UHGV virus genome: UHGV-0166527
Direction: 5' to 3' (one strand)
Source: a virus
DNA: 13,507 nucleotides
Shown here piece by piece: positions 1-13,507 of this stretch. A model generated the notes under the pieces. It made no database searches and was not told the origin of the DNA. It worked only from the letters and a program-made list of their open reading frames with translations. The stretch's first letter is position 1. Every line of letters starts with the position of its first letter. A program made the position numbers and the translations under genes.

Positions 1-49
1 GTATGCTAAATACCACTATTCTAAATATTCTTAACTGGCTGATATTGAT

Positions 50-2794
50 TCAAATCGCGTTCAGGTCTTTCTTATTCAACCATGCTTCCAGAGCGGCAAC
101 ACTGTGTGTAATTTCTTCGTGTGGGAGGGGGGCAGATAATGGTTGCTGCTCCAGTTGCGCGCATAGCTGGCTGGCGCTACGCATTCCCAGACTCGCGCAG
201 CTGCTTTTTAGCTGGTGCGCGGCACGTTTAATTTTTTCGCCGTCCTGCCTGGCGCGGGCTGCGTCTATTTCATCGAGAAGTGGCAGGGCATGTTGTTTAA
301 ATAATGTCAGCCATTCGCGAATACTCTCCGTCCCCATTAACTGAGCATCTTCATGGAGTTGCGATACATCCAGCGATTGATCTTTATTGGTTTGCAGTTG
401 GAGATAGTGCGCCAGTAACTGACCGAGCACTTCACGCGGCACTGGTTTAGGGATAATCCCGCGAAAGAGCGAACTGGTTCGCTGGCGCAGCGTTTCGTCG
501 ATGACATGGGCGCTAAAGCCAATCAAAACCAGCGACGGATATTGCTGTACCAGTTGTCGGGCAAGGGTAATGCCGTCGATATCCGGCAGATCAAAATCCA
601 CCAGTGCGGCAGCAAATGGTTCACTATTTTGCAGCGTTTCTATCGCCTGCGCGGCATTGCCAACAGCCACGACCTGCGCACCACTGGTGTTTAGCATCTC
701 AACGGTAATTCGCTGGGTTAGCGGGTTATCTTCAATTAACAGCAAACGTAAACCGTCCAGACGTACCGCCTGATTGACTGTTTTTGGCACGGGGGCAGTG
801 GCAACACGTAACGGCAAGCGTAAACAAAAACAGCTTCCAGCCCCCGGCGTGCTGGTGGCGCTCAGTTCGCCGCCCATCGCCTGAGCCAGACTGCTACTGA
901 TAGTCAGCCCCAGCCCGGTGCCGCCGCGTTTGCCGCTTACCTGAACAAATGGCTGGAATATTTCTGCCAGTTTCGCGGGATCAATACCGCAGCCGCTGTC
1001 TTCCACTTCGACCAACCATTGCTCGCCATCAGTGCGACTGCGCAGGACGATCTGCCCCTCGTCAGTGAAACGCACGGCGTTGCTCAACAAGTTGGTAATA
1101 ACCTGGCGAATACGTCGCGGATCGCCCATTAACGCGCTCGGTACATCGTTGGCAATTGCCGTTGCCAGGCGAATCGGGCGACCTTTCACCCGCCCGCTCA
1201 TTAATTGCAGGGTACTTTCCAGCAGCGGGCGTGGTTCAAAGGGTTCATCGCTGACCGAAACATTTTTGCCCCCCGCTTCGATAGCCGAATAATCGAGGAT
1301 ATCGTTAAGGATGGTCAGCAGCGATTCGCCGGAGTCGGTAATTGCCCGCAAATCATCACGCTGGGCGTTAAGTGCGGGGTTATCTGCCAGCAGTTGCGCG
1401 GTGCCGAGAATACCGTACAGCGGTGTGCGGATCTCATGGCTCATTGCCGCCAGAAACGCAGATTTTGCCTGGCTGGCTTTTTCGGCTTCCGCACGAGCCT
1501 GTCGATGTTCTACCACCAGTTCCTGTAATTCAGCCGTGCGCGCTTTTACTTGTGCCGCCAGCTGTTCGCGCTGGCGATTCAGCGCATGAACGCTGCTGCG
1601 AAACGCATCCATCAGCCGCCCGATAGTATCCAGCTCCCGCACGCCAGCGGTTTCCGGGAAAGGGGAGTCGATATCACCGTCCAGCAAGCGTTGCAGCGCC
1701 TGCGTTTGTTCAGCAAGTGGACGTGTGACAGAGCGATAAACCACGCGCCAGAGGATCAGAATCAGTGCGCAAAGTGAAACCATCCCCAGCAATACCAGGC
1801 TGTATTGCCCGCGTGCGCTGGCTTTTTCCAGATGCGCCAGTCCATGTTGATTACGCAGCTCAATGGTGTCGACCAGCTGACTGACTTCGCTACTAAACTG
1901 CGCAAACTGGGCGATGTTATTTTGGGCGAGAGTGTGCAGGTGATTGCTGATTTCACTGTCCTGCTGATACAGCGCCAGCAAATCGCTATATTGGCTAACG
2001 GTAGTTAACGTTGTTGCGACCTGAGCACGAACTCCCGGATCTTCAATGCGTATTTGCCGACGTTGCAGAATTTTCACCGCATTATTGAGCTGCTTTTCCA
2101 GCGTTGGCGCATTTTTCTGGATCTGTTCCAGCCCCAGATTCATCACCATTTGCTGCACCCGCAGAGCACTAAGGCGCAGTTCATTCATCTGGTTAACATA
2201 CTCAAGATCGATATCAATCAGCCTGTCGAGTGCGCTTTCGGCGGCCTGACGCTGATGTTGTTCGATCAAATCGTAAATCCCGGCCTGGGTAGCTCCGGCG
2301 GAGGTGGCCGCATTATTCGCCTGACCTTGCGCCAGGCGTGCGATTTCATCGGCGGCGGCGACTATCTGCTGACTGAGTTGCTGTTGTTGCTGGCGCAGTT
2401 GCAAACGCTGCCCCACCAGCTCCCCTTGCTGACGTAACGAACGGGAGATCTCCTGCTCCTGTTGTTCAATAGCGGTGGTATCAAAACCTTGTTCCCGTAA
2501 TGCTTGCAGCAACGCATTAATCTTCAGGCTTTGTGCGGTGAGCATTCGCCCCTGCGCCTGCCACATCTTTTCGTTATCGGCACTGGTCAGGTTCTGCGCG
2601 GCGAAAAGTTCCCAGGCGCTGGCTTCGCTCAACTGGCGCGCCATATTCATGGTAGGAATCAATGCCTGAGTGTTGTCTTTTTCCACCTGGCTGATAAAGC
2701 GCAGGTTGTACCATCCCACCAGGGTACTGGTCAGGGTTAACAGCGCCATCAGGGCAAAGCCCATCCAGAGCCTTCGGGTCAGGGTTAAATTCAC
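50..2794 (-). CDS. torS: Hybrid sensor histidine kinase TorS (trimethylamine N-oxide two-component sensor), complete 914 aa
   Basis: 914-aa ORF with N-terminal TM segment, HAMP-like region, histidine-kinase H-box (MSHEIRTPL), ATPase motifs (GTGLGL), receiver domain ([10 protein letters not shown]) and C-terminal HPt region; length and N-terminus [19 protein letters not shown] match my recollection of E. coli TorS. Confidence 0.93.
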
Positions 2795-2888
2795 GGTCGG
2801 TGCACTTAAGGTGAATAAGTTGTATATTTAAAATCTCTTTTATTATCAATGAATTAATGTAAGCAGGTCATTATTAGTCAAAATAAAA
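2795..2888. other. Putative attL (bacterial arm / core / P' arm) between torS start and int stop; AT-rich with arm-type-like motifs (AGGTCATTAT, TAGTCAAAAT)
   Basis: 94-bp AT-rich spacer directly adjacent to the 3' end of a lambda-family int; motifs resemble lambda Int arm-type sites (CAGTCACTAT); exact core not identifiable without attR. Confidence 0.4.
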
Positions 2889-3962
2889 TCATTTGTCGAT
2901 TTCAATTTTGTCCCATTCCCGTCCACGGCTGTCCCTATACCGCGCCGCCATTGAATCTGATTTATGCCCGAGAAGACGTTGAGCAAACTTATCGCCAATC
3001 TGGTTCCGGTATAGCCTCGCTGACAGGCTACGCAGTTCATGGAATGTTGGCGGGTTTCCATCAAATGAGAGTCCAGATGCATTTCTCGCCTTTGTAAAAT
3101 ACTTTGATACTGTTTTCGGGGAAAGCGGATCGTGATGCTTTGATGCGATTATAGTTTCACTGCTGCTGGCCTCCCTGCATTTTTGTAGTGTATCAGCCAA
3201 TGAGATATTGAGCGCGTCAATCGTTAGCGTCAGCGGAATGGCGAGCTTAGCCCCTGTTTTACTCTGCTCAATGTGAAGATGGTTGTCGTTTATGTCTGAC
3301 CATTTCATTCTGCACAAATCGCCCACTCTCTGCCCTGTAACGACAGCCAAATCCATTGCCAGCCTCAGCCAGATTGGGAGAGGTTCGGCTGCATGGTAAA
3401 TCGCGACATACTCATTAGCTGTCAGCCTTGAGCGCCTTACTTCTGACTTTGCTGTGCGGGTTGCTGTTACCGGATTCGTTTCCACATGCCCCTCGGCTAT
3501 TGCCTCACGAAAAACGTCAACAAGGGTTGACCTGATTAATTTTGCGGAAGCTGCTTTACCTTCTGCTACGTAGGTGTTTAGCATTGCTGCCACCTCTTTC
3601 GTTGATATGTCATTGAGCGGTTTGTCCGGCAATTTTCTTCGAATCGCCCTGATTTTGCTGGCGTAGTCGAGTAGAGTTTTCGGTCTGATACCCCTCTCGC
3701 TGAGGATTGTTTCATATCGGTCAAGCCACGCATGAAGAGTGATTGCGTCAGCGCCTTTAATCCTGTCTATCAGTGACTCACGCCTGTTCTCGGATAGCAA
3801 CTCAATATTGGCCTGAATAGCCTCTGAAACTGCTATCCTTCTGTCTCTGCCTAATCCGAACTCTTTACCCGTCCTTGGGTCCCTGTAGCAGTAATATCCA
3901 TTGTTTCTTATATAAAGGTTAGGGGGTAAATCCCGGCGCTCATGACTTCGCCTTCTTCCCAT
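2889..3962 (-). CDS. int: Tyrosine integrase, lambda Int family (357 aa)
   Basis: N-terminus MGRRRSHERRDLPPNLYIRNNGYYCYRDPRTGKEFGLGRDRRIA and C-terminus RGREWDKIEI closely match recalled lambda Int; catalytic motifs TGQRVGDL, HELRSL, LLGHKSD, ARYRD present. Confidence 0.95.
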   Translation of the reverse strand: MGRRRSHERRDLPPNLYIRNNGYYCYRDPRTGKEFGLGRDRRIAVSEAIQANIELLSENRRESLIDRIKGADAITLHAWLDRYETILSERGIRPKTLLDYASKIRAIRRKLPDKPLNDISTKEVAAMLNTYVAEGKAASAKLIRSTLVDVFREAIAEGHVETNPVTATRTAKSEVRRSRLTANEYVAIYHAAEPLPIWLRLAMDLAVVTGQRVGDLCRMKWSDINDNHLHIEQSKTGAKLAIPLTLTIDALNISLADTLQKCREASSSETIIASKHHDPLSPKTVSKYFTKARNASGLSFDGNPPTFHELRSLSARLYRNQIGDKFAQRLLGHKSDSMAARYRDSRGREWDKIEIDK

Positions 3963-4648: not shown

Positions 4649-4768
4649 CAGATAAAAGAAATCCCCGCGAGTGCGAGGATTGTTATTGTCTTTGCTTTGT
4701 GCATTTGTCGCACTTTCGGCACCATCCAGATAGGCACATCCGTCCGCAATTAACACATATAGGCCACA

Positions 4769-5535: not shown

Positions 5536-5652
5536 TCACCTCCTGCACAGGCTGAAAATAAACGATGTGATTGCCAAATCCTGAATTGCTGTAATTGCCA
5601 GCATCCAGCCATAAATGCTTTCACTGAAATGCCATGCTAGTGCTGTAATCAC
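5536..5652 (-). CDS. Possible small hydrophobic peptide (38 aa, VITALAWHFSESIYGWMLAITAIQDLAITSFIFSLCRR), GTG start overlapping the stop of the 405-aa gene
   Basis: Hand translation; GTG at 5650-5652 within GTGA overlap, preceded by AGGAGGTTAAGCC; not in the ORF track because it is under 60 aa. Confidence 0.35.
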   Translation of the reverse strand: MITALAWHFSESIYGWMLAITAIQDLAITSFIFSLCRR

Positions 5653-6866
5653 GGCTTAACCTCCTGAGGCGGTTCTGGTAGAGACATCCAGTGAGTTACG
5701 TCATCCAAGATATTTCCTGATAAATACGTGAAAGCTCTATATTTTTTGTAATCAATTGGATTTACAACCCAGTTCCAATATGCGGCCACGATTTCACCTT
5801 GACTAAATGCCAGTAACATTTTGGTGTCTTCCGGCATTCGATCACTACAGCTTATCCAACCATCCGGAGTTACCGGAGAATTGCCATTTACCAAGTCAGC
5901 TCGAACATATAGCGTGTCATCATGGTGCTGATTGTGGCTGCACCACGTTAATTCGCTTAACTCGCCATCTTCTGGCCATACTCCAGCTGTTTGCAGCCAG
6001 ATATGGGCTGGCGCATCTTGGCAAGGTGTATTAACTGGCAACTTGTAAGTTTGGCTTACAGGTTGGCTACCCTGAAGCATGGCAGCGCGGCAGGCATACT
6101 CAACGCCCTTAACTGCATCTGCGCAGTAGTTATAGCGATTGCATTCCACTAATTTCCGTTTGAGTTTTTCAATTGCCTGCGCGACATCAGCCTGTATTAC
6201 AGGAACTGGCGGAACGGCTGTTTGCTCTCGAACGTCATTAGTCGCTATCGGTTCTGCTGCCAACTGGCTGGCATATTTGTTAATGGTAACGATAAGCTCT
6301 TGCTCAGCCTCATCCAGACAATCACCGATACCTCGCCTGTCACCGTCAAAATCATCGAAATCGGCACGAATCTTGGCAACCTTCAGGATTGCGGACAACA
6401 CCTCACTAGGAATTACCGGATAGTTGGTTGATGTTTCCGCGATTTCCCGAAAATTATTGGTTGACGAATTCTTGTTTTCCCGAAAGTTTCCGGACTGAAG
6501 CATGGCGGCGCGGCAGGCGTTCCAGCCATCTGCGTAACAATCTCTGTGTGTCTTGAAATATGTCACCGCCCTTGGTACATCGTTTACGTCTATTTCATCC
6601 GGCACAACCGGCGCAGGTGAGTCAGCATAAACAGGAATAACGTCCGGTTGCTCTTTATTGCTTTCATCCGTTAAAGCCAAGAATAATTTTCCGGCCGGAT
6701 GTTTGAAAATATAAGCAACTGGTTCTGCTTCCAGCGATGCCAGCGCCAACTTGAACGCCTGAAGCTCAATGGCACTGTTGGTATCCAGTCCAAACGGTAA
6801 TTCATCACGATTGGCTTCGTATTCAGCGATAGTTTGCTTCAGCCATTCTTTGGTTAGTTCAGCCAT
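5649..6866 (-). CDS. Phage early-region protein (405 aa) with an internal duplicated motif (ACRAAMLQ) and a C-terminal region reminiscent of DUF551-type phage domains
   Basis: ATG at 6864-6866 (MAELTKEW) chosen because the upstream ATG at 6917 overlaps the preceding gene and lacks an SD; family assignment is from memory and uncertain. Confidence 0.6.
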   Translation of the reverse strand: MAELTKEWLKQTIAEYEANRDELPFGLDTNSAIELQAFKLALASLEAEPVAYIFKHPAGKLFLALTDESNKEQPDVIPVYADSPAPVVPDEIDVNDVPRAVTYFKTHRDCYADGWNACRAAMLQSGNFRENKNSSTNNFREIAETSTNYPVIPSEVLSAILKVAKIRADFDDFDGDRRGIGDCLDEAEQELIVTINKYASQLAAEPIATNDVREQTAVPPVPVIQADVAQAIEKLKRKLVECNRYNYCADAVKGVEYACRAAMLQGSQPVSQTYKLPVNTPCQDAPAHIWLQTAGVWPEDGELSELTWCSHNQHHDDTLYVRADLVNGNSPVTPDGWISCSDRMPEDTKMLLAFSQGEIVAAYWNWVVNPIDYKKYRAFTYLSGNILDDVTHWMSLPEPPQEVKP

Positions 6867-6870
6867 ATCC

Positions 6871-7323
6871 CTAATTCCCCTTGATGCTGACTTTGACGCC
6901 AACCTTGCGAATCTCATCGGCGCATCTGTTCACGATACTCCGGTGAAACTCACAAAAAATTTTCGCCGACTGCGGCCCTAATGGGTGAACATCGTGCGCA
7001 CGCGGCAGTACAACCTCCCGCGCCTCCATGTCAGCAATCCGCTTGTCTTTGGCTTCCAGCTCATCCAGCAGCGCCAGCACGGTAGCTGGATTGGCTGCGG
7101 CGATGAATTCAGCATTGGCCTGCTGTTCTATTTGGAAATCTTCATCGAAACCGCTTTCAGGATGCGCTCCTTCAATTCTGCAAATGGGAATATATCCAGC
7201 AGCCTCGCGATGAATTAGCGCATCATCACCATCAAATCGGCCCTTTCCATATTCGAGCGACCACTCGCCACACGTTGCTTTTTCTGCCTTAGCACGCAGT
7301 GCCTGATAGTCAATCTTGCTCAC
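6871..7323 (-). CDS. Hypothetical phage protein (150 aa), possibly Ead/Ea22-like; GTG start
   Basis: GTG at 7321-7323 preceded by AAAGGAGG 6 nt upstream; N-terminus MSKIDYQALRAKAEKATCGEW resembles recalled Ead/Ea22-like annotations. Confidence 0.55.
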   Translation of the reverse strand: MSKIDYQALRAKAEKATCGEWSLEYGKGRFDGDDALIHREAAGYIPICRIEGAHPESGFDEDFQIEQQANAEFIAAANPATVLALLDELEAKDKRIADMEAREVVLPRAHDVHPLGPQSAKIFCEFHRSIVNRCADEIRKVGVKVSIKGN

Positions 7324-10056: not shown

Positions 10057-10080
10057 GGTAAAGCCGCGCTTGGCGGCTTA
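10057..10080. repeat. Copy 1 of a 23-24 bp intergenic element GGTAAAGCCGCGCTTGGCGGCTTA (contains inverted repeat AAGCCGC/GCGGCTT) overlapping the stop of the 138-aa gene
   Basis: Near-identical to 10517..10540; palindromic core. Confidence 0.6.
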
Positions 10081-10494
10081 TTTGAAGATGTCTATGAAAT
10101 CAAGAACTGATGATATTTCGTGGTTGAACGATTTTCTTTTGTATCTTTCTATCGCAGAATCCACCTGGTGTTTATAGTCATCGTCGTTTGAGTATTTAAC
10201 GAAGCATTCTATTGTCTCAGGCGTTACAGCTATAAGGCTCCACCAACCTTCATCAGATTGATATTCAAATCCCATGCTTTCAAGCCATCCAGCATATTTC
10301 CCTCCAGCATCTTGCCAGTGTGTCTTTTCTGCAAGGAAGCTGTTAACCGTCATATGTGCATCAAGGCATTTATCCAACTGTTTACCATTAAGTAGCCATG
10401 CGCTGACAGTTGCACATCCCAAATCAACTGATTGAGTAGAGATATTGAATTGGTCGTAATTATCTGGATTAACCAGGATATCTGTAATTTCCAT
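10078..10494 (-). CDS. Hypothetical phage protein (138 aa)
   Basis: ATG at 10492-10494 preceded by GGAGGAATT; no recognised family. Confidence 0.6.
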   Translation of the reverse strand: MEITDILVNPDNYDQFNISTQSVDLGCATVSAWLLNGKQLDKCLDAHMTVNSFLAEKTHWQDAGGKYAGWLESMGFEYQSDEGWWSLIAVTPETIECFVKYSNDDDYKHQVDSAIERYKRKSFNHEISSVLDFIDIFK

Positions 10495-10516: not shown

Positions 10517-10540
10517 GTTAAAGCCGCGCTTGGCAGTTAC
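10517..10540. repeat. Copy 2 of the 23-24 bp intergenic element (GTTAAAGCCGCGCTTGGCAGTTAC) overlapping the stop of the 82-aa gene
   Basis: Near-identical to 10057..10080. Confidence 0.6.
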
Positions 10541-10785
10541 TCTATTTCTTCTTCGAATGATTTTATTAGTCGGTCAATAACATCATCTGTTTCAATATCA
10601 TTTCCGTCTGATTGCTTTAATACGTCTATTGATTCTACGGCGGTAAACTCCATCGCTGTGAGAAACTCGACAATTGCACACCCAACGACATATCGTTCTT
10701 CATCTGTACGACATGAGATAAAAGAGCATTTAATTGCTGTTATTACTTTTTGTTTAAGCTCTGCAGGGTAATCAGTTTTTATCAT
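10537..10785 (-). CDS. Hypothetical small acidic protein (82 aa)
   Basis: ATG at 10783-10785 preceded by GGAG 6 nt upstream; acidic C-terminus (DGNDIETDDVIDRLIKSFEEEIE). Confidence 0.6.
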   Translation of the reverse strand: MIKTDYPAELKQKVITAIKCSFISCRTDEERYVVGCAIVEFLTAMEFTAVESIDVLKQSDGNDIETDDVIDRLIKSFEEEIE

Positions 10786-10798
10786 CGTTTACTCCGTC

Positions 10799-10826
10799 AA
10801 AAAAACTGCCCTCACATTGGAGGGCA
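10799..10826 (-). terminator. Intrinsic terminator (minus strand): stem TGCCCTC / loop CAATGT / GAGGGCA followed by seven U
   Basis: 7-bp GC-rich stem; the minus-strand U-tract corresponds to + 10799-10805 (AAAAAAA); lies just upstream of the 82-aa gene RBS. Confidence 0.65.
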
Positions 10827-10942
10827 AAGAAGATTTCCAATAATCAGAACAAGTCGGCTCCTGTTTAGTTACGAGCGACATTGCTCCGTGTATTCACTCG
10901 TTGGAATGAATACACAGTGCAGTGTTTATTCTGTTGTTTATG

Positions 10943-10970
10943 CCAAAAATAAAGGCCGACTATGCGGCCT
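10943..10970 (-). terminator. Intrinsic terminator (minus strand): stem AGGCCG / loop CATAGT / CGGCCT followed by TTATTTTTGG; the loop contains the stop codon of the 207-aa gene
   Basis: 6-bp GC-rich stem plus U-rich tract read on the minus strand; tL1-like position after the N operon proximal genes. Confidence 0.6.
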
Positions 10971-11583
10971 CGGAAGGAAGTCCAATCATCTTATTCAAAT
11001 CTTCTACCCGTAAAGCAGGAAGTGCTGTACTTGCTTTGTCTGCTTCTTTTGGTAGCAATTCTTTGCTTTCAGGCCAAACTTCAATAAGTCGCTTAACTGT
11101 TGTGACTGAGTTCAAAGCAGCCCATACATTTGATTCGATATCCTTTTTCTTGGCTTCAAGTTTTTGTTGCAATGCGCAGATTTCATCAAACCTTTTTGTT
11201 ATTTCGTGTTCTGCGTCAAACATGCATTTATCTTTGGTCGGAGTAGGGAGCAATATATCTTCGCCGTTGCCGTCTTTCCCATATGAATGCCATCCAACCC
11301 TTCTGCCAGATACAGTCAGATAAATCGAAGTAGAACGAACATCGCATGAGTAAAATGAACATCCCATCTTTTCAATTTCTTCACTTATAGCTACTAACCT
11401 GGATGATAACTGATCCACTTCATCAGTTTTCTTTTTACCGCCAAACGCAACAACCCTGGCGTCAAGTGCAAGCTGGTTCTTTAACCTTGTTACTTCTTCA
11501 AGTTCAGTGAAAACCCCAGACTTAATTAAAGCGTTACGAGCGATTTTCTCTTTCATTCTCGTAGTTAAGCGGATTGATGACAT
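10960..11583 (-). CDS. Hypothetical protein (207 aa) immediately downstream of N, upstream of the first terminator
   Basis: ATG at 11581-11583 (MSSIRLTTRMKEKIARNAL...) preceded by GAGAGGAA; soluble, no recognised family; occupies the ral/sieB accessory slot. Confidence 0.65.
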   Translation of the reverse strand: MSSIRLTTRMKEKIARNALIKSGVFTELEEVTRLKNQLALDARVVAFGGKKKTDEVDQLSSRLVAISEEIEKMGCSFYSCDVRSTSIYLTVSGRRVGWHSYGKDGNGEDILLPTPTKDKCMFDAEHEITKRFDEICALQQKLEAKKKDIESNVWAALNSVTTVKRLIEVWPESKELLPKEADKASTALPALRVEDLNKMIGLPSEAA

Positions 11584-11594
11584 ATTAATTCCTC

Positions 11595-11921
11595 TCAAAT
11601 AAGTGGTTTGCTGCCTAATTTCATTTTCTGGCGACCAACACAAGTCACACCCATTTCACTGCGTGGCTTGCTGTACCATGTGCGCTGATTCTTGCGTTCA
11701 ATACGTTGCAGGTTGCTTTCAATCTGTTCGTGGTATTCAGCCAGCACCGTAAGGTCTATCGGATTCAGTGCGCTTTCTACTCGTGATTTCGGTTTGCGAT
11801 TCAGCGAGAGAATAGGGCGGTTAACTGGCTTTGCGCTTACCCCAACCAACAGGGGATTTGCTGCTTTCCATTGAGCCTGTTTCTCTGCGCGACGTTCGCG
11901 GCGGCGTGTTTGTGCATCCAT
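11595..11921 (-). CDS. N: Antitermination protein N (lambda-type, 108 aa)
   Basis: MDAQTRRRERRAEKQAQWKAANPLLVGVSAKPVNRPILSLNRKPKSRVESALNPIDLTVLAEYH... matches recalled lambda N including the arginine-rich motif; AGGAGA SD upstream of ATG 11919-11921. Confidence 0.9.
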   Translation of the reverse strand: MDAQTRRRERRAEKQAQWKAANPLLVGVSAKPVNRPILSLNRKPKSRVESALNPIDLTVLAEYHEQIESNLQRIERKNQRTWYSKPRSEMGVTCVGRQKMKLGSKPLI

Positions 11922-12078
11922 CTGGATTCTCCTGTCAGTTAGCTTTGGTTGTGTGTGGGAGTCGTAGTCCTGAACGAAAACACCCCGCAATGGCACATTG
12001 GCAGCTAATCCGGATTCGCACTTCCGGCCAATGCTTCGTTTCGTATCACACACACCAAAGCCTTCTGCTTTGAATGCT

Positions 12079-12109
12079 GCCCTTCTTCAGGGCTTAATTT
12101 TTAAGAGCC
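12079..12109 (-). promoter_or_regulatory. nutL site: boxA-like (GGCTCTTAA, + 12101-12109) and boxB hairpin (GCCCTGAAGAAGGGC, + 12079-12093)
   Basis: boxB is identical to recalled lambda nutL boxB when read on the minus strand; boxA differs from CGCTCTTAA by one base. Confidence 0.75.
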
Positions 12110-12154
12110 TCACCTTCAATGGTGGTCAGTGCGTCCTGCTGATGGCTTAAAATT

Positions 12155-12222
12155 ACAAGAAAGATTGTATGTTGTAAACAAGAAATATTGTAAAAATGGG
12201 CGTAAAAAACAAAATCCATTGT
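12155..12222 (-). promoter_or_regulatory. OL operators (three 14-bp 434-type sites ACAA-N6-TTGT at 12155-12168, 12178-12191, 12209-12222) overlapping the pL promoter
   Basis: ACAAGAAAGATTGT, ACAAGAAATATTGT, ACAAAATCCATTGT; minus strand shows -35-like TTTACA and -10-like TAATTT with 17-nt spacing. Confidence 0.7.

Positions 12223-12272: not shown

Positions 12273-13507
<1,235 letters not shown>

What the first reader, a model, noticed from the sequence alone, without database searches (positions are those of the whole stretch)
10960..11583. Unknown 207-aa protein co-transcribed with N upstream of the first terminators
The ORF starts 11 bp after the N stop with a good SD, and ends inside the loop of an intrinsic terminator hairpin. 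It would therefore be expressed immediately from pL, with N, before any antitermination is needed. In lambda this N-proximal position is occupied by tL1 followed by ral/sieB-type accessory genes, so an immediate-early protein of unknown family here is a candidate anti-restriction, anti-defence or exclusion factor. The region looks AT-rich relative to N by eye. I do not recognise the protein.
Basis: partly seen in the sequence, partly recalled or inferred. Interest (0 to 1): 0.6.

Follow-up and report, generated by a model that had tools for sequence, protein, structure and literature searches.

The report
Nmad5-family early gene after N
The "unknown" 207-residue protein is a real gene of the catalogued but functionally untested phage family Nmad5, placed so that it is made together with the N regulator at the very start of infection, which makes it a reasonable but unproven candidate for a host-takeover or counter-defence factor.

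Summary
A 207-codon ORF (10960..11583, minus strand) starts 11 nt after the N stop behind a GAGGA Shine-Dalgarno. Its TAG lies in the loop of a hairpin plus T-tract, and it is AT-richer than N (40.7% vs 50.0% GC).

The protein is not of unknown family. It matches Pfam PF18757 (Nmad5) end to end (E 9e-70) and PHROG 1965. RefSeq names it "Nmad5 family putative nucleotide modification protein". It is 95-98% identical to proteins of phages HK542 and mEp235 and occurs in 211 of 5,426 complete E. coli genomes.

Relative to lambda, it replaces the sieB-ral module between N and the terminator region downstream of ral. In 78 related loci it is always N-proximal. In Klebsiella, Serratia and Providencia prophages it is the first gene after the repressor.

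No modification enzymes accompany it here. The AlphaFold model is a coiled-coil stalk with a small beta tip and a conserved flexible C-terminal peptide, with no solved structural relative.

The only experimental data come from Dhillonvirus: the gene is dispensable, toxic to clone, and a K-to-E change gives escape from Tmn immunity. That site aligns with R165 here.

Best reading: an immediate-early, probably non-catalytic binder. The function remains untested. The gene is already known and the lead is modest.

The parts
12150..12192 (-). pL-type promoter (-35 TTTACA, 17 nt, -10 TAATTT) overlapping two operator repeats TACAAT(A/C)TTTCTTGT; the transcript start region is identical to lambda pL RNA
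   Evidence: Sequence read; direct repeats 12155-12169 and 12178-12192; homology with lambda and HK542 up to 12144/12149; HK542 pL annotation. The promoter is inferred from the sequence and fell below the threshold of the consensus scan.
12079..12093 (-). nutL boxB hairpin (GCCCTGAAGAAGGGC)
   Evidence: Hairpin found; sequence; position matches the lambda Nutl feature through the alignment.
11595..11921 (-). Antiterminator N, lambda type (108 codons plus TGA); starts MDAQTRRRERR
   Evidence: Pfam N36 E 2.5e-26; PHROG 271; 94% DNA identity to lambda N over 11620-12144; translation.
11584..11594 (-). 11-nt N-to-Nmad5 spacer GAGGAATTAAT carrying the Shine-Dalgarno sequence; the same 5' flank (CTTATTTGAGAGGAATTAAT) precedes the gene in nearly all alleles, whatever lies upstream
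10960..11583 (-). Nmad5-family gene (207 aa plus TAG)
   Evidence: PF18757 E 8.9e-70, residues 4-203 on model positions 1-206 of 206; PHROG 1965 E 3.6e-82; 97.6% aa identity to mEp235 and 95.2% to HK542; codon-position pattern; AlphaFold model with mean pLDDT 85.
10942..10971 (-). First intrinsic-terminator-like element: a 7-pair hairpin whose loop holds the Nmad5 stop codon, then TATTTTTGG. The 3' arm and T-tract are shared with the sequence just after lambda ral; the 5' arm belongs to the Nmad5 module
   Evidence: All 7 pairs are kept in 50 of 78 loci, at least 6 pairs in 75 of 78, and the stop is in the loop in 76 of 78.
10797..10827 (-). Second, stronger intrinsic-terminator-like element (8 pairs, then TTTTTTT), homologous to the lambda ral-ea10 intergenic hairpin
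10963..11620 (.). Mosaic module bounded by lambda homology on both sides; it replaces the roughly 950-bp lambda segment that carries sieB and ral
   Evidence: blastn of the window against lambda and the lambda sequence and annotation.

Best explanation
The ORF is a genuine gene for a stand-alone Nmad5-family protein (Pfam PF18757).

The sequence shows that the gene lies on the pL transcript directly behind N, with its own Shine-Dalgarno 11 nt after the N stop. No terminator precedes it, and its stop codon sits inside the first terminator hairpin.

From this I infer that it is made with N, without any need for antitermination, in the first minutes after infection or induction, and that it is silent in the lysogen. 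I also infer that a ribosome reaching the stop would cover the 5' arm of the hairpin, so termination there could depend on how tightly translation follows transcription.

The predicted protein is a three-helix coiled-coil stalk with a small beta tip. It ends in a short helical domain and a flexible tail, and these carry the family's most conserved motif ([KR]-L-I-x-x-W-P-E ... L-P-x-x-x-V-x-x-L-N-x-x-I-G-x-P).

I infer that it acts stoichiometrically, by binding a conserved partner through that C-terminal region. The partner would be a host component, or replicating DNA itself, belonging to DNA metabolism or immunity. The effect would be to favour phage DNA metabolism or blunt host interference. 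I do not think it modifies nucleotides itself.

I rate identity and gene reality at about 0.95, immediate-early expression at about 0.8, and the binder, host-takeover or counter-defence mechanism at about 0.35-0.4.
For: Identity.

Operon position. There is also no terminator between N and the gene in the allele with a 61-nt gap.

Slot conservation:
- In 78 loci an N-family ORF lies within 1.1 kb upstream in 76.
- It is immediately adjacent in 46 loci (gaps of 11 or 61 nt).
- A second N type is adjacent in 7 loci, and Ral lies between N and the gene in 10.
- The flanking recombination modules differ (Erf, RecT, Red) and so do the N alleles.
- In Klebsiella, Serratia and Providencia prophages (42-57% identity) it is the first called gene after the repressor. 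In Klebsiella a promoter-like site and a 265-nt leader precede it, with no N ORF.

Accessory character: low GC; present in only 3.9% of complete E. coli genomes; the slot holds other genes in other prophages.

Non-catalytic look:
- The model is mostly coiled coil, with pLDDT 85.
- Across 44 diverse members only E172 and N197 are invariant.
- No domain fusions and no recurrent partner gene were found.

Link to host immunity, from PMC11846954: the Dhillonvirus homologue is dispensable, apparently toxic to clone, and K216E/K296E gives escape from Tmn. K216 of phage SM_A8 aligns with R165 in the most conserved motif. Tmn is reported to sense an early phage protein directly (PMC13001434).
Against: No experiment bears on this protein in any lambdoid phage.

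In YuA/M6-like phages the family sits inside the thymidine-hypermodification cluster (PMC9476957). In several lytic phages it sits in replication modules. Both placements fit a role in DNA metabolism proper at least as well as counter-defence.

The absence of a catalytic-looking site is a weak argument, since E172, N197 and R43 could form one.

Deletion of the Dhillonvirus gene did not change Tmn sensitivity, so the protein is neither the sole trigger nor an inhibitor of Tmn.

Termination at the hairpin and N-independent expression are predicted, not measured. About a third of alleles carry weakened hairpins.
Confidence: 0.4

Rival explanations
1. It is what its name says: an accessory subunit of phage DNA metabolism or modification. 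It would act on DNA or on the replisome, for example by recruiting enzymes to replicating DNA, and is not aimed at host defence.
For: In YuA-like phages the gene lies between the 5-hmdU DNA kinase and ADDT genes and the dU hydroxymethylase, near PolA (PMC9476957).

In other phages it lies in or next to replication modules:
- N4-like Shigella phage B2: after thymidylate synthase, within the replication module.
- Vibrio phage Athena1: just before replication protein O.
- Phage eiAU: after the helicase-primase.
- A Providencia prophage: at the head of a DUF2800-SSB-PolA module.

Conserved basic residues (R5, K21, R43, K164/R165) could contact nucleic acid. The other known Tmn trigger, RIIB, is described as a replisome factor (PMC13001434).
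Against: The window's pL operon has no modification enzyme, and neither does the HK542 stretch. No neighbour recurs across phage groups other than the repressor. In lambdoids the gene is separated from the recombination genes by two terminators and by variable accessory genes, and it combines freely with Erf, RecT or Red modules. It is dispensable in Dhillonvirus (PMC11846954).
Confidence: 0.3
2. It is a regulator of early transcription. It would substitute for or assist N, since it takes the first position of the leftward operon in prophages that have no N gene there.
For: It is the first ORF after the repressor in Klebsiella, Serratia and Providencia prophages, with a long leader and no N-like ORF. 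In E. coli phages it is always next to N.
Against: It co-occurs with a complete N in the window. The family is widespread in lytic phages that have no lambda-type antitermination. It has no arginine-rich motif or other similarity to N, Nun or Q.
Confidence: 0.07
3. It is a prophage-expressed exclusion or defence factor, taking over the role of the lambda sieB gene it replaces.
For: It occupies the sieB/ral slot and has accessory-like composition.
Against: No promoter-like site was found on its strand between pL and its start. pL is repressed in lysogens. It has no hydrophobic segment (maximum Kyte-Doolittle 19-residue mean 0.61), whereas SieB has membrane segments. It matches no PADLOC model. 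The family is common in strictly lytic phages.
Confidence: 0.05
4. The annotated frame is wrong: the real gene is the antisense ORF 10922..11323 (plus strand, 133 aa), which GenBank record EF120458 annotates as HK542c101.
For: The antisense ORF is open in all 59 alleles and was annotated by the depositors of EF120458.
Against: It has no Pfam match. It lies in the antisense frame whose third codon positions coincide with those of the sense gene, a frame that often stays open by chance. Within that ORF, position 2 varies more than position 1 (25 vs 14 sites), which is the reverse of a coding pattern. The minus-strand frame shows 42/30/77 and a 235-bit family match.
Confidence: 0.02

Closest known systems
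HK542 gp33 (HK542_033 / HK542c102) and the mEp235 orthologue; RefSeq 'Nmad5 family putative nucleotide modification protein' of E. coli prophages and Stx1a/Stx2a phages
   Same: The same gene: 95-98% amino-acid identity, the same position right after N (11-nt gap in HK542), and the same terminator hairpin.
   Different: Essentially nothing. The window combines it with a different immunity region and integration site. None of these orthologues has been studied experimentally, as far as the searched literature shows.
Nmad5 proteins of YuA/M6-like Pseudomonas phages (for example YuA gp15)
   Same: Same Pfam family. The C-terminal 85 residues align at 42-45% identity, including the WPE and LN..IG.P motifs.
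   Different: These are embedded in the thymidine-hypermodification cluster (5-hmdU DNA kinase, ADDT, hydroxymethylase) next to PolA. The N-terminal half is not alignable by BLAST. These are lytic or non-lambdoid phages.
Dhillonvirus Nmad5 (SM_A8 CDS7, SM_S22 CDS6, SECphi18 gp24)
   Same: Same family. Residues 103-203 align at 33% identity. The Tmn-escape residue K216 aligns with R165 of the window protein, in the conserved [KR]LIxxWPE motif.
   Different: These are 254 aa or longer, with an insertion in the beta region. The gene stands alone on the opposite strand inside the head-morphogenesis cluster. The only experimental data for the family come from here (PMC11846954).
Lambda sieB-ral module and the terminators around it
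   Same: Same place in the pL operon. The window is homologous to lambda on both sides of the module, and the T-tract after the stop codon is the one that follows ral in lambda.
   Different: No sequence similarity. In lambda, sieB is read from the opposite strand. Ral and Nmad5 can sit in tandem. I recall that lambda has tL1 between N and ral, whereas here nothing separates N from the gene.
T2/T4 RIIB
   Same: Resemblance in role only: an early phage protein whose point mutations let the phage escape Tmn (PMC13001434).
   Different: No homology (hhalign probability 0.3%). RIIB alone activates Tmn, whereas deleting Dhillonvirus nmad5 leaves Tmn sensitivity intact (PMC11846954).

Membership tests
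Nmad5 (Pfam PF18757 / PHROG 1965) | Match to the family profile above the curated threshold, over the whole domain | tested here: met
   235.4 bits against a cut-off of 27, E 8.9e-70, residues 4-203 on model positions 1-206 of 206. PHROG 1965 E 3.6e-82.
Nmad5 (Pfam PF18757 / PHROG 1965) | Stand-alone protein of about 200 aa with the conserved N-terminal R-L-T...N-A motif and the C-terminal [KR]LIxxWPE...LN..IG.P motifs | tested here: met
   Alignments A1, A2 and A3. 2,307 cluster representatives, nearly all 190-220 aa. No fusions.
Nmad5 (Pfam PF18757 / PHROG 1965) | Gene neighbourhood with nucleotide or DNA base-modification enzymes (the basis of the family's name) | tested here: not met
   No such gene in the window's pL operon or in the HK542, Klebsiella and Serratia loci. 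It is met only in YuA-like phages. This feature concerns the functional label, not sequence membership.
Nmad5 (Pfam PF18757 / PHROG 1965) | A biochemical role in nucleotide modification | not testable with these tools
The papers that mention Nmad5 report no biochemical activity for the protein.
Ral-type restriction alleviation | Sequence similarity to Ral (about 66 aa) and mutually exclusive use of the slot | tested here: not met
   No Ral family hit. Ral lies directly upstream of this gene in 10 of 78 loci and in E. coli D1.
SieB-type superinfection exclusion | Membrane protein expressed in the lysogen from its own promoter | tested here: not met
   No hydrophobic segment. No promoter-like site between pL and the start. 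Expression itself was not measured.
Acidic DNA-mimic anti-restriction proteins (Ocr/ArdA type) | Strongly acidic protein | tested here: not met
   pI 7.6, with 33 K+R against 32 D+E. No structural match.
Intrinsic (Rho-independent) terminator | G+C-rich hairpin followed directly by a U-tract on the transcribed strand | tested here: met
   7 pairs (5 G-C), 6-nt loop, TATTTTTGG, dG about -11 kcal/mol. The T-tract is conserved in nearly all 78 loci, but 28 loci have one or more broken pairs.
Intrinsic (Rho-independent) terminator | Transcripts actually end there | not testable with these tools
   Needs term-seq or a Northern blot.

The most novel reading that the evidence does not exclude
Nmad5 proteins are a widespread, so far unrecognised class of immediate-early phage effectors. 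In lambdoid phages the protein would be the first or second product of pL. It would dock through its conserved C-terminal peptide onto a host DNA-metabolism or immunity component, and host sensors such as Tmn would monitor that surface. The name 'nucleotide modification' would then reflect only one lineage's gene neighbourhood.
Probability: 0.25. Interest if true: 0.6.

Novelty: already known. Interest (0 to 1): 0.33.

Why it matters
The gene and its family are already catalogued, so nothing new is discovered as sequence. What this analysis adds is context.

A family with more than 2,000 diverged representatives and no known function holds a strikingly fixed place in temperate enterobacterial phages. 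It is the first or second gene of the leftward early operon, ahead of the first terminators, and it combines freely with different N alleles, immunity regions and recombination modules.

Together with the Tmn escape mutation in its most conserved motif, this makes HK542 and mEp235 convenient systems for finding out what Nmad5 proteins do. Both grow on E. coli K-12.

It also cautions against reading the RefSeq label "nucleotide modification protein" as a function in lambdoid prophages and Stx phages.

Tried and rejected
- Defence or anti-defence catalogues: PADLOC gave no hit. NCBIfam has no model for it.
- Homology to the known Tmn trigger RIIB: rejected (hhalign probability 0.3%).
- Domain fusions that might reveal function: none among 131 hits or the 150 listed representatives.
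- A conserved partner gene next to Nmad5 across 14 diverse loci: none apart from the cI-type repressor.
- Compensatory changes in the terminator stem: not found. The commonest variant changes both partners of one pair but breaks it.
- Literature: Nmad5 appears in 4 papers, and only one has experiments. Searches on HK542, mEp235 and SECphi18 gave nothing on this gene. The paper I recall as the origin of the family name (Iyer et al. 2013, Nucleic Acids Res) is not held. A search for lambda tL1/tL2 papers returned nothing useful, so those terminator names rest on memory.
- The genome-contig scan gave only 4 loci. The A3 alignment was too diverse for a locus scan.
Full report
**1. The observation.**
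The window's right half is the leftward early operon of a lambdoid prophage, read on the minus strand.

The ORF in question runs from ATG 11583 to TAG 10962..10960 and encodes 207 residues. The upstream ORF is antiterminator N: Pfam N36 gives E 2.5e-26, and the DNA is 94% identical to lambda N and nutL over 11620-12144. N starts at ATG 11921 (MDAQTRRRERR...) and stops at TGA 11597..11595.

Between the N stop and the ATG lie 11 nt, GAGGAATTAAT, which give a GAGGA Shine-Dalgarno 6 nt before the start. The mechanical ORF list extends the frame to TTG 11643, but homologues and the Pfam model start at MSSIRLT, so 11583 is the start.

The stop codon sits in the loop of GAGGCCG-CATAGT-CGGCCTT, which is followed by TATTTTTGG (10971..10952). 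This hairpin has 7 pairs and a dG of about -11 kcal/mol. A second, stronger hairpin plus T-run follows at 10827..10806. The scan found no terminator-like site on this strand between the promoter region and 10971.

The promoter itself is readable. It has -35 TTTACA, a 17-nt spacer and -10 TAATTT, and overlaps two copies of TACAAT(A/C)TTTCTTGT. It is followed by the lambda pL leader and the nutL boxB hairpin at 12079..12093.

The gene is AT-richer than N: 40.7% vs 50.0% GC, and GC3 34% vs 46%.

**2. It is a real gene, in this frame.**
The family match is 235 bits against a threshold of 27. I compared 76 full-length copies from related loci, which make 59 distinct DNA alleles and 56 distinct proteins. 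Variable sites fall 42/30/77 on codon positions 1/2/3.

An antisense ORF (10922..11323, plus strand, 133 aa) is annotated in GenBank EF120458 as HK542c101 and is open in all alleles. It has no Pfam match. It lies in the antisense frame that shares third codon positions with the sense gene, and it shows more change at position 2 than at position 1. I treat it as a by-product of the sense gene.

**3. What the protein is.**
It is not of unknown family. It matches Pfam PF18757, "Nucleotide modification associated domain 5" (Nmad5), from end to end, and PHROG 1965, which is labelled "unknown function". RefSeq annotates the same gene as "Nmad5 family putative nucleotide modification protein".

How common it is:
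- The protein is 97.6% identical to a protein of phage mEp235 and 95.2% identical to HK542_033. It is about 94% identical to proteins of Stx1a- and Stx2a-converting phages.
- The gene is present in 211 of 5,426 complete E. coli genomes.
- A profile search of 1.84 billion cluster representatives finds 2,307 relatives at E up to 0.001. Nearly all of those listed are stand-alone proteins of about 200 aa. No domain fusions were seen.
- Among phage genomes it occurs in 379 records. These include Vibrio, Pseudomonas (YuA-like), Bordetella, Edwardsiella, N4-like Shigella phages and the Dhillonvirus genus.

**4. How the locus is built.**
The window is homologous to lambda at two places: 11620-12144 (N and nutL) and 10800-10963. 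The second stretch corresponds to the lambda sequence that begins at the ral stop codon and runs to just before ea10.

The 657 bp in between replace the roughly 950-bp lambda segment that carries sieB and ral. In lambda, sieB is read from the opposite strand, as one search shows. I recall that this lambda segment also contains tL1.

The left joint falls inside the hairpin. The 3' arm and T-tract are the ones that follow ral in lambda, where the 5' partner is much weaker. The 5' arm here is the end of the Nmad5 coding sequence. The second hairpin is the lambda ral-ea10 intergenic hairpin. From memory, that region is called the tL2 cluster.

The immunity region differs from lambda's. The repressor's N-terminal sequence and the operator repeats look like phage 434 to me (from memory). 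The prophage sits next to torS.

**5. Is the slot conserved?**
Yes. I analysed 77 IMG/VR contigs that carry the gene at 93-98% protein identity, plus the window.
- An N-family ORF lies within 1.1 kb upstream, on the same strand, in 76 of 78 loci.
- It is immediately adjacent in 46 loci, with a gap of 11 nt in 32 and 61 nt in 14.
- A second N type with an arginine-rich motif is adjacent in 7 more loci.
- Ral lies between N and the gene in 10 loci.
- The 20 nt before the ATG (CTTATTTGAGAGGAATTAAT) are the same whatever lies upstream. In the 61-nt variant the spacer is a remnant of the lambda-type N 3' end and contains no terminator.
- Annotated E. coli examples show three arrangements: N-Nmad5-kil-Erf; Ral-Nmad5 followed by a RecT module; and N-Nmad5-Ea10-cIII-kil-gam-bet-exo in an Stx-type prophage. 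The gene therefore combines freely with recombination modules and N alleles.
- Other prophages at the same torS site carry different genes in this slot.
- The hairpin keeps all seven pairs in 50 of 78 loci and at least six pairs in 75. The stop codon is in the loop in 76. The variants weaken the stem and are not compensated, so its strength is not tightly held.

More distant relatives point the same way. In Klebsiella (57% identity), Serratia (42%) and Providencia (46%) prophages, the Nmad5 gene is the first called gene downstream of the cI-type repressor on the leftward operon. In the Klebsiella locus a repressor terminator is followed by a 10-of-12 promoter match and a 265-nt leader, with no N-like ORF before the gene.

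Promoter-proximal placement in the early left operon is thus the conserved feature in temperate enterobacterial phages.

**6. What the family's other contexts say.**
- In YuA-like phages the gene lies between the 5-hmdU DNA kinase and ADDT genes and the dU hydroxymethylase, near PolA (PMC9476957). I believe this is where the name comes from.
- Elsewhere there are no modification genes nearby. The gene follows thymidylate synthase in the replication module of an N4-like phage. It precedes replication protein O in Vibrio phage Athena1 and follows the helicase-primase in phage eiAU.
- It heads a DUF2800-SSB-PolA module in the Providencia prophage.
- In Dhillonvirus it is a lone opposite-strand gene in the head cluster.
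- An all-against-all comparison of neighbours in 14 diverse loci found no recurrent partner gene other than the repressor.
- The window's own pL operon holds integrase, excisionase, several unknowns, SSB, Erf, Abc2, Kil and cIII, and no modification enzyme.

**7. The protein itself.**
The AlphaFold model has mean pLDDT 85 and pTM 0.70. Its elements are:
- three long helices (8-22, 24-47, 50-72);
- a small beta unit (86-100);
- a 32-residue helix (127-158) that returns along the stalk;
- three short helices (163-182);
- a low-confidence linker (182-191);
- a short C-terminal helix.

The most conserved part of the family is this C-terminal third: T162, K164/R165, L166, W170-P171-E172, L176, P178, then L196-N197, G201 and P203. 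Across 44 diverse members only E172 and N197 are invariant.

The protein is neutral (pI 7.6) and has no hydrophobic segment.

No solved structure resembles it beyond generic coiled coils. The viral structure library returns only other Nmad5 proteins.

Nothing here looks like an enzyme fold, although that is a weak negative. A highly conserved motif on a flexible tail is what one expects of a docking peptide. That reading is an inference.

**8. Experimental knowledge.**
Only one study bears on the family (PMC11846954). In two Dhillonvirus phages, escape from the Tmn defence system mapped to a single substitution in nmad5: K216E in SM_A8 and K296E in SM_S22. Reverting the substitution restored sensitivity. 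Deleting the gene did not abolish sensitivity, and the wild-type gene could not be cloned, apparently because it is toxic.

I retrieved SM_A8 (PP920553) and checked the site. Residue 216 is the second K of T-D-K-K-L-I-K-A-W-P-E. It aligns with R165 of the window protein (T-V-K-R-L-I-E-V-W-P-E), inside the family's best-conserved motif.

A 2026 preprint reports that Tmn is activated by direct binding of the early T2 protein RIIB (PMC13001434). Nmad5 and RIIB are not homologous.

The Dhillonvirus authors call Nmad5 a "DNA modification enzyme". They present no biochemical evidence for this.

**9. Most likely mechanism, and rivals.**
Shown by sequence: the gene lies on the pL transcript, directly behind N and ahead of the first terminator-like hairpins.

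Inferred: it is expressed with N, independently of antitermination, and is silent in lysogens. The stop codon in the hairpin loop means a terminating ribosome would cover the 5' arm, so termination there could be modulated by translation.

Inferred, with about 0.35-0.4 confidence: the protein is a non-catalytic early binder that engages a conserved host component or replicating DNA through its C-terminal region. This would help the phage take over DNA metabolism or evade host interference, and host immunity can be sensitive to that surface.

The main rival, at about 0.3, is a direct accessory role in phage DNA replication or modification. The lytic-phage neighbourhoods favour it. The absence of any recurrent partner, the accessory composition, the patchy distribution and the dispensability count against it. 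The two readings overlap.

Minor rivals:
- An N-like regulatory role, suggested by its first position in N-less prophages, at about 0.07.
- A lysogen-expressed exclusion factor, at about 0.05. No promoter, no membrane segment and its presence in lytic phages argue against this.
- A wrong frame, at about 0.02.

**10. Comparison with the known, and novelty.**
Membership in Nmad5 is met on every sequence criterion. The neighbourhood that gave the family its name is not met here.

The gene works in the same operon position as lambda's sieB-ral module but is unrelated to it. It can sit next to Ral, so it is not a Ral replacement.

As a sequence feature it is already known and annotated. Its function is unknown in every phage.

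The useful outcome is a sharper description of a conserved immediate-early slot and a concrete experimental handle: HK542 or mEp235, residue R165 and the C-terminal tail.

I score interest at 0.33. A specialist would not be surprised by an uncharacterised accessory gene after N, but the family's breadth, its fixed promoter-proximal position and the Tmn link make it a fair target.

Noticed in passing
window 12273..12749 (minus strand): A 158-codon ORF lies between the repressor gene and pL, the slot where lambda carries rexAB. It matches PHROG 2651 (unknown function) from residue 39 onward, so the true start is probably later. It has a signal-peptide-like segment, [19 protein letters not shown]. 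It could be a lysogen-expressed exclusion gene.
   Followed up: partly
window 12674..13306 and 12155..12192: The repressor's N-terminal sequence ([44 protein letters not shown]...) and the operator repeats TACAAT(A/C)TTTCTTGT look like phage 434 immunity to me, joined to a lambda-type nutL and N. This identification is from memory and was not tested against a 434 record.
   Followed up: partly
window 10537..10785 and 10078..10494 (minus strand): Two very AT-rich (36% and 39% GC), acidic (pI 4.3 and 4.5) small ORFs follow the second terminator. The 82-aa one matches PHROG 14587, labelled 'anti-restriction protein'. The 138-aa one matches PHROG 8967 (unknown). Neither has a Pfam, NCBIfam or PADLOC match.
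   Followed up: partly
window 10922..11323 (plus strand): An antisense ORF of 133 aa lies inside the Nmad5 gene. It is annotated as HK542c101 in GenBank EF120458 and is open in all 59 alleles examined. It has no family match and a non-coding substitution pattern, so it is probably an artefact of the shared-third-position antisense frame.
   Followed up: yes
window 10952..10971; loci L027-L106: In 12 of 78 related loci the terminator stem reads GAGGTCGCATAATCGTCCTT. Both partners of one C-G pair have changed (to T and T), which breaks the pair. The stop becomes TAA and the computed stability falls from about -11 to -4.9 kcal/mol. Some lineages therefore carry a much weaker first terminator.
   Followed up: partly
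L019 4577..5000 (Klebsiella prophage): Between the repressor's terminator and the Nmad5 start there is a 10-of-12 sigma-70 promoter match (4707-4735) and a 265-nt leader with no N-like ORF. The leader might hold a nut- or put-like RNA element. It was not examined.
   Followed up: no
alignment A1 (enterobacterial homologues), C-termini: 10 of 21 homologues, including the window protein, end in Ala-Ala (...PSEAA, ...TEQAA). This resembles ssrA-type C-terminal degradation signals and may hint at rapid turnover. This is pure speculation.
   Followed up: no
window 5649..6917 (minus strand): A 422-aa ORF has a C-terminal DUF551 domain and a mosaic of PHROG matches (ead/Ea22-like region). It is typical of the hypervariable distal part of lambdoid pL operons.
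   Followed up: no
window 1..3962: The prophage is integrated next to torS (50..2794, minus strand), with the integrase at 2889..3962. No complete E. coli genome in the collection covers more than 58% of the window in one place, so this combination of modules is not represented there. torS is only about 95-96% identical to E. coli copies.
   Followed up: partly
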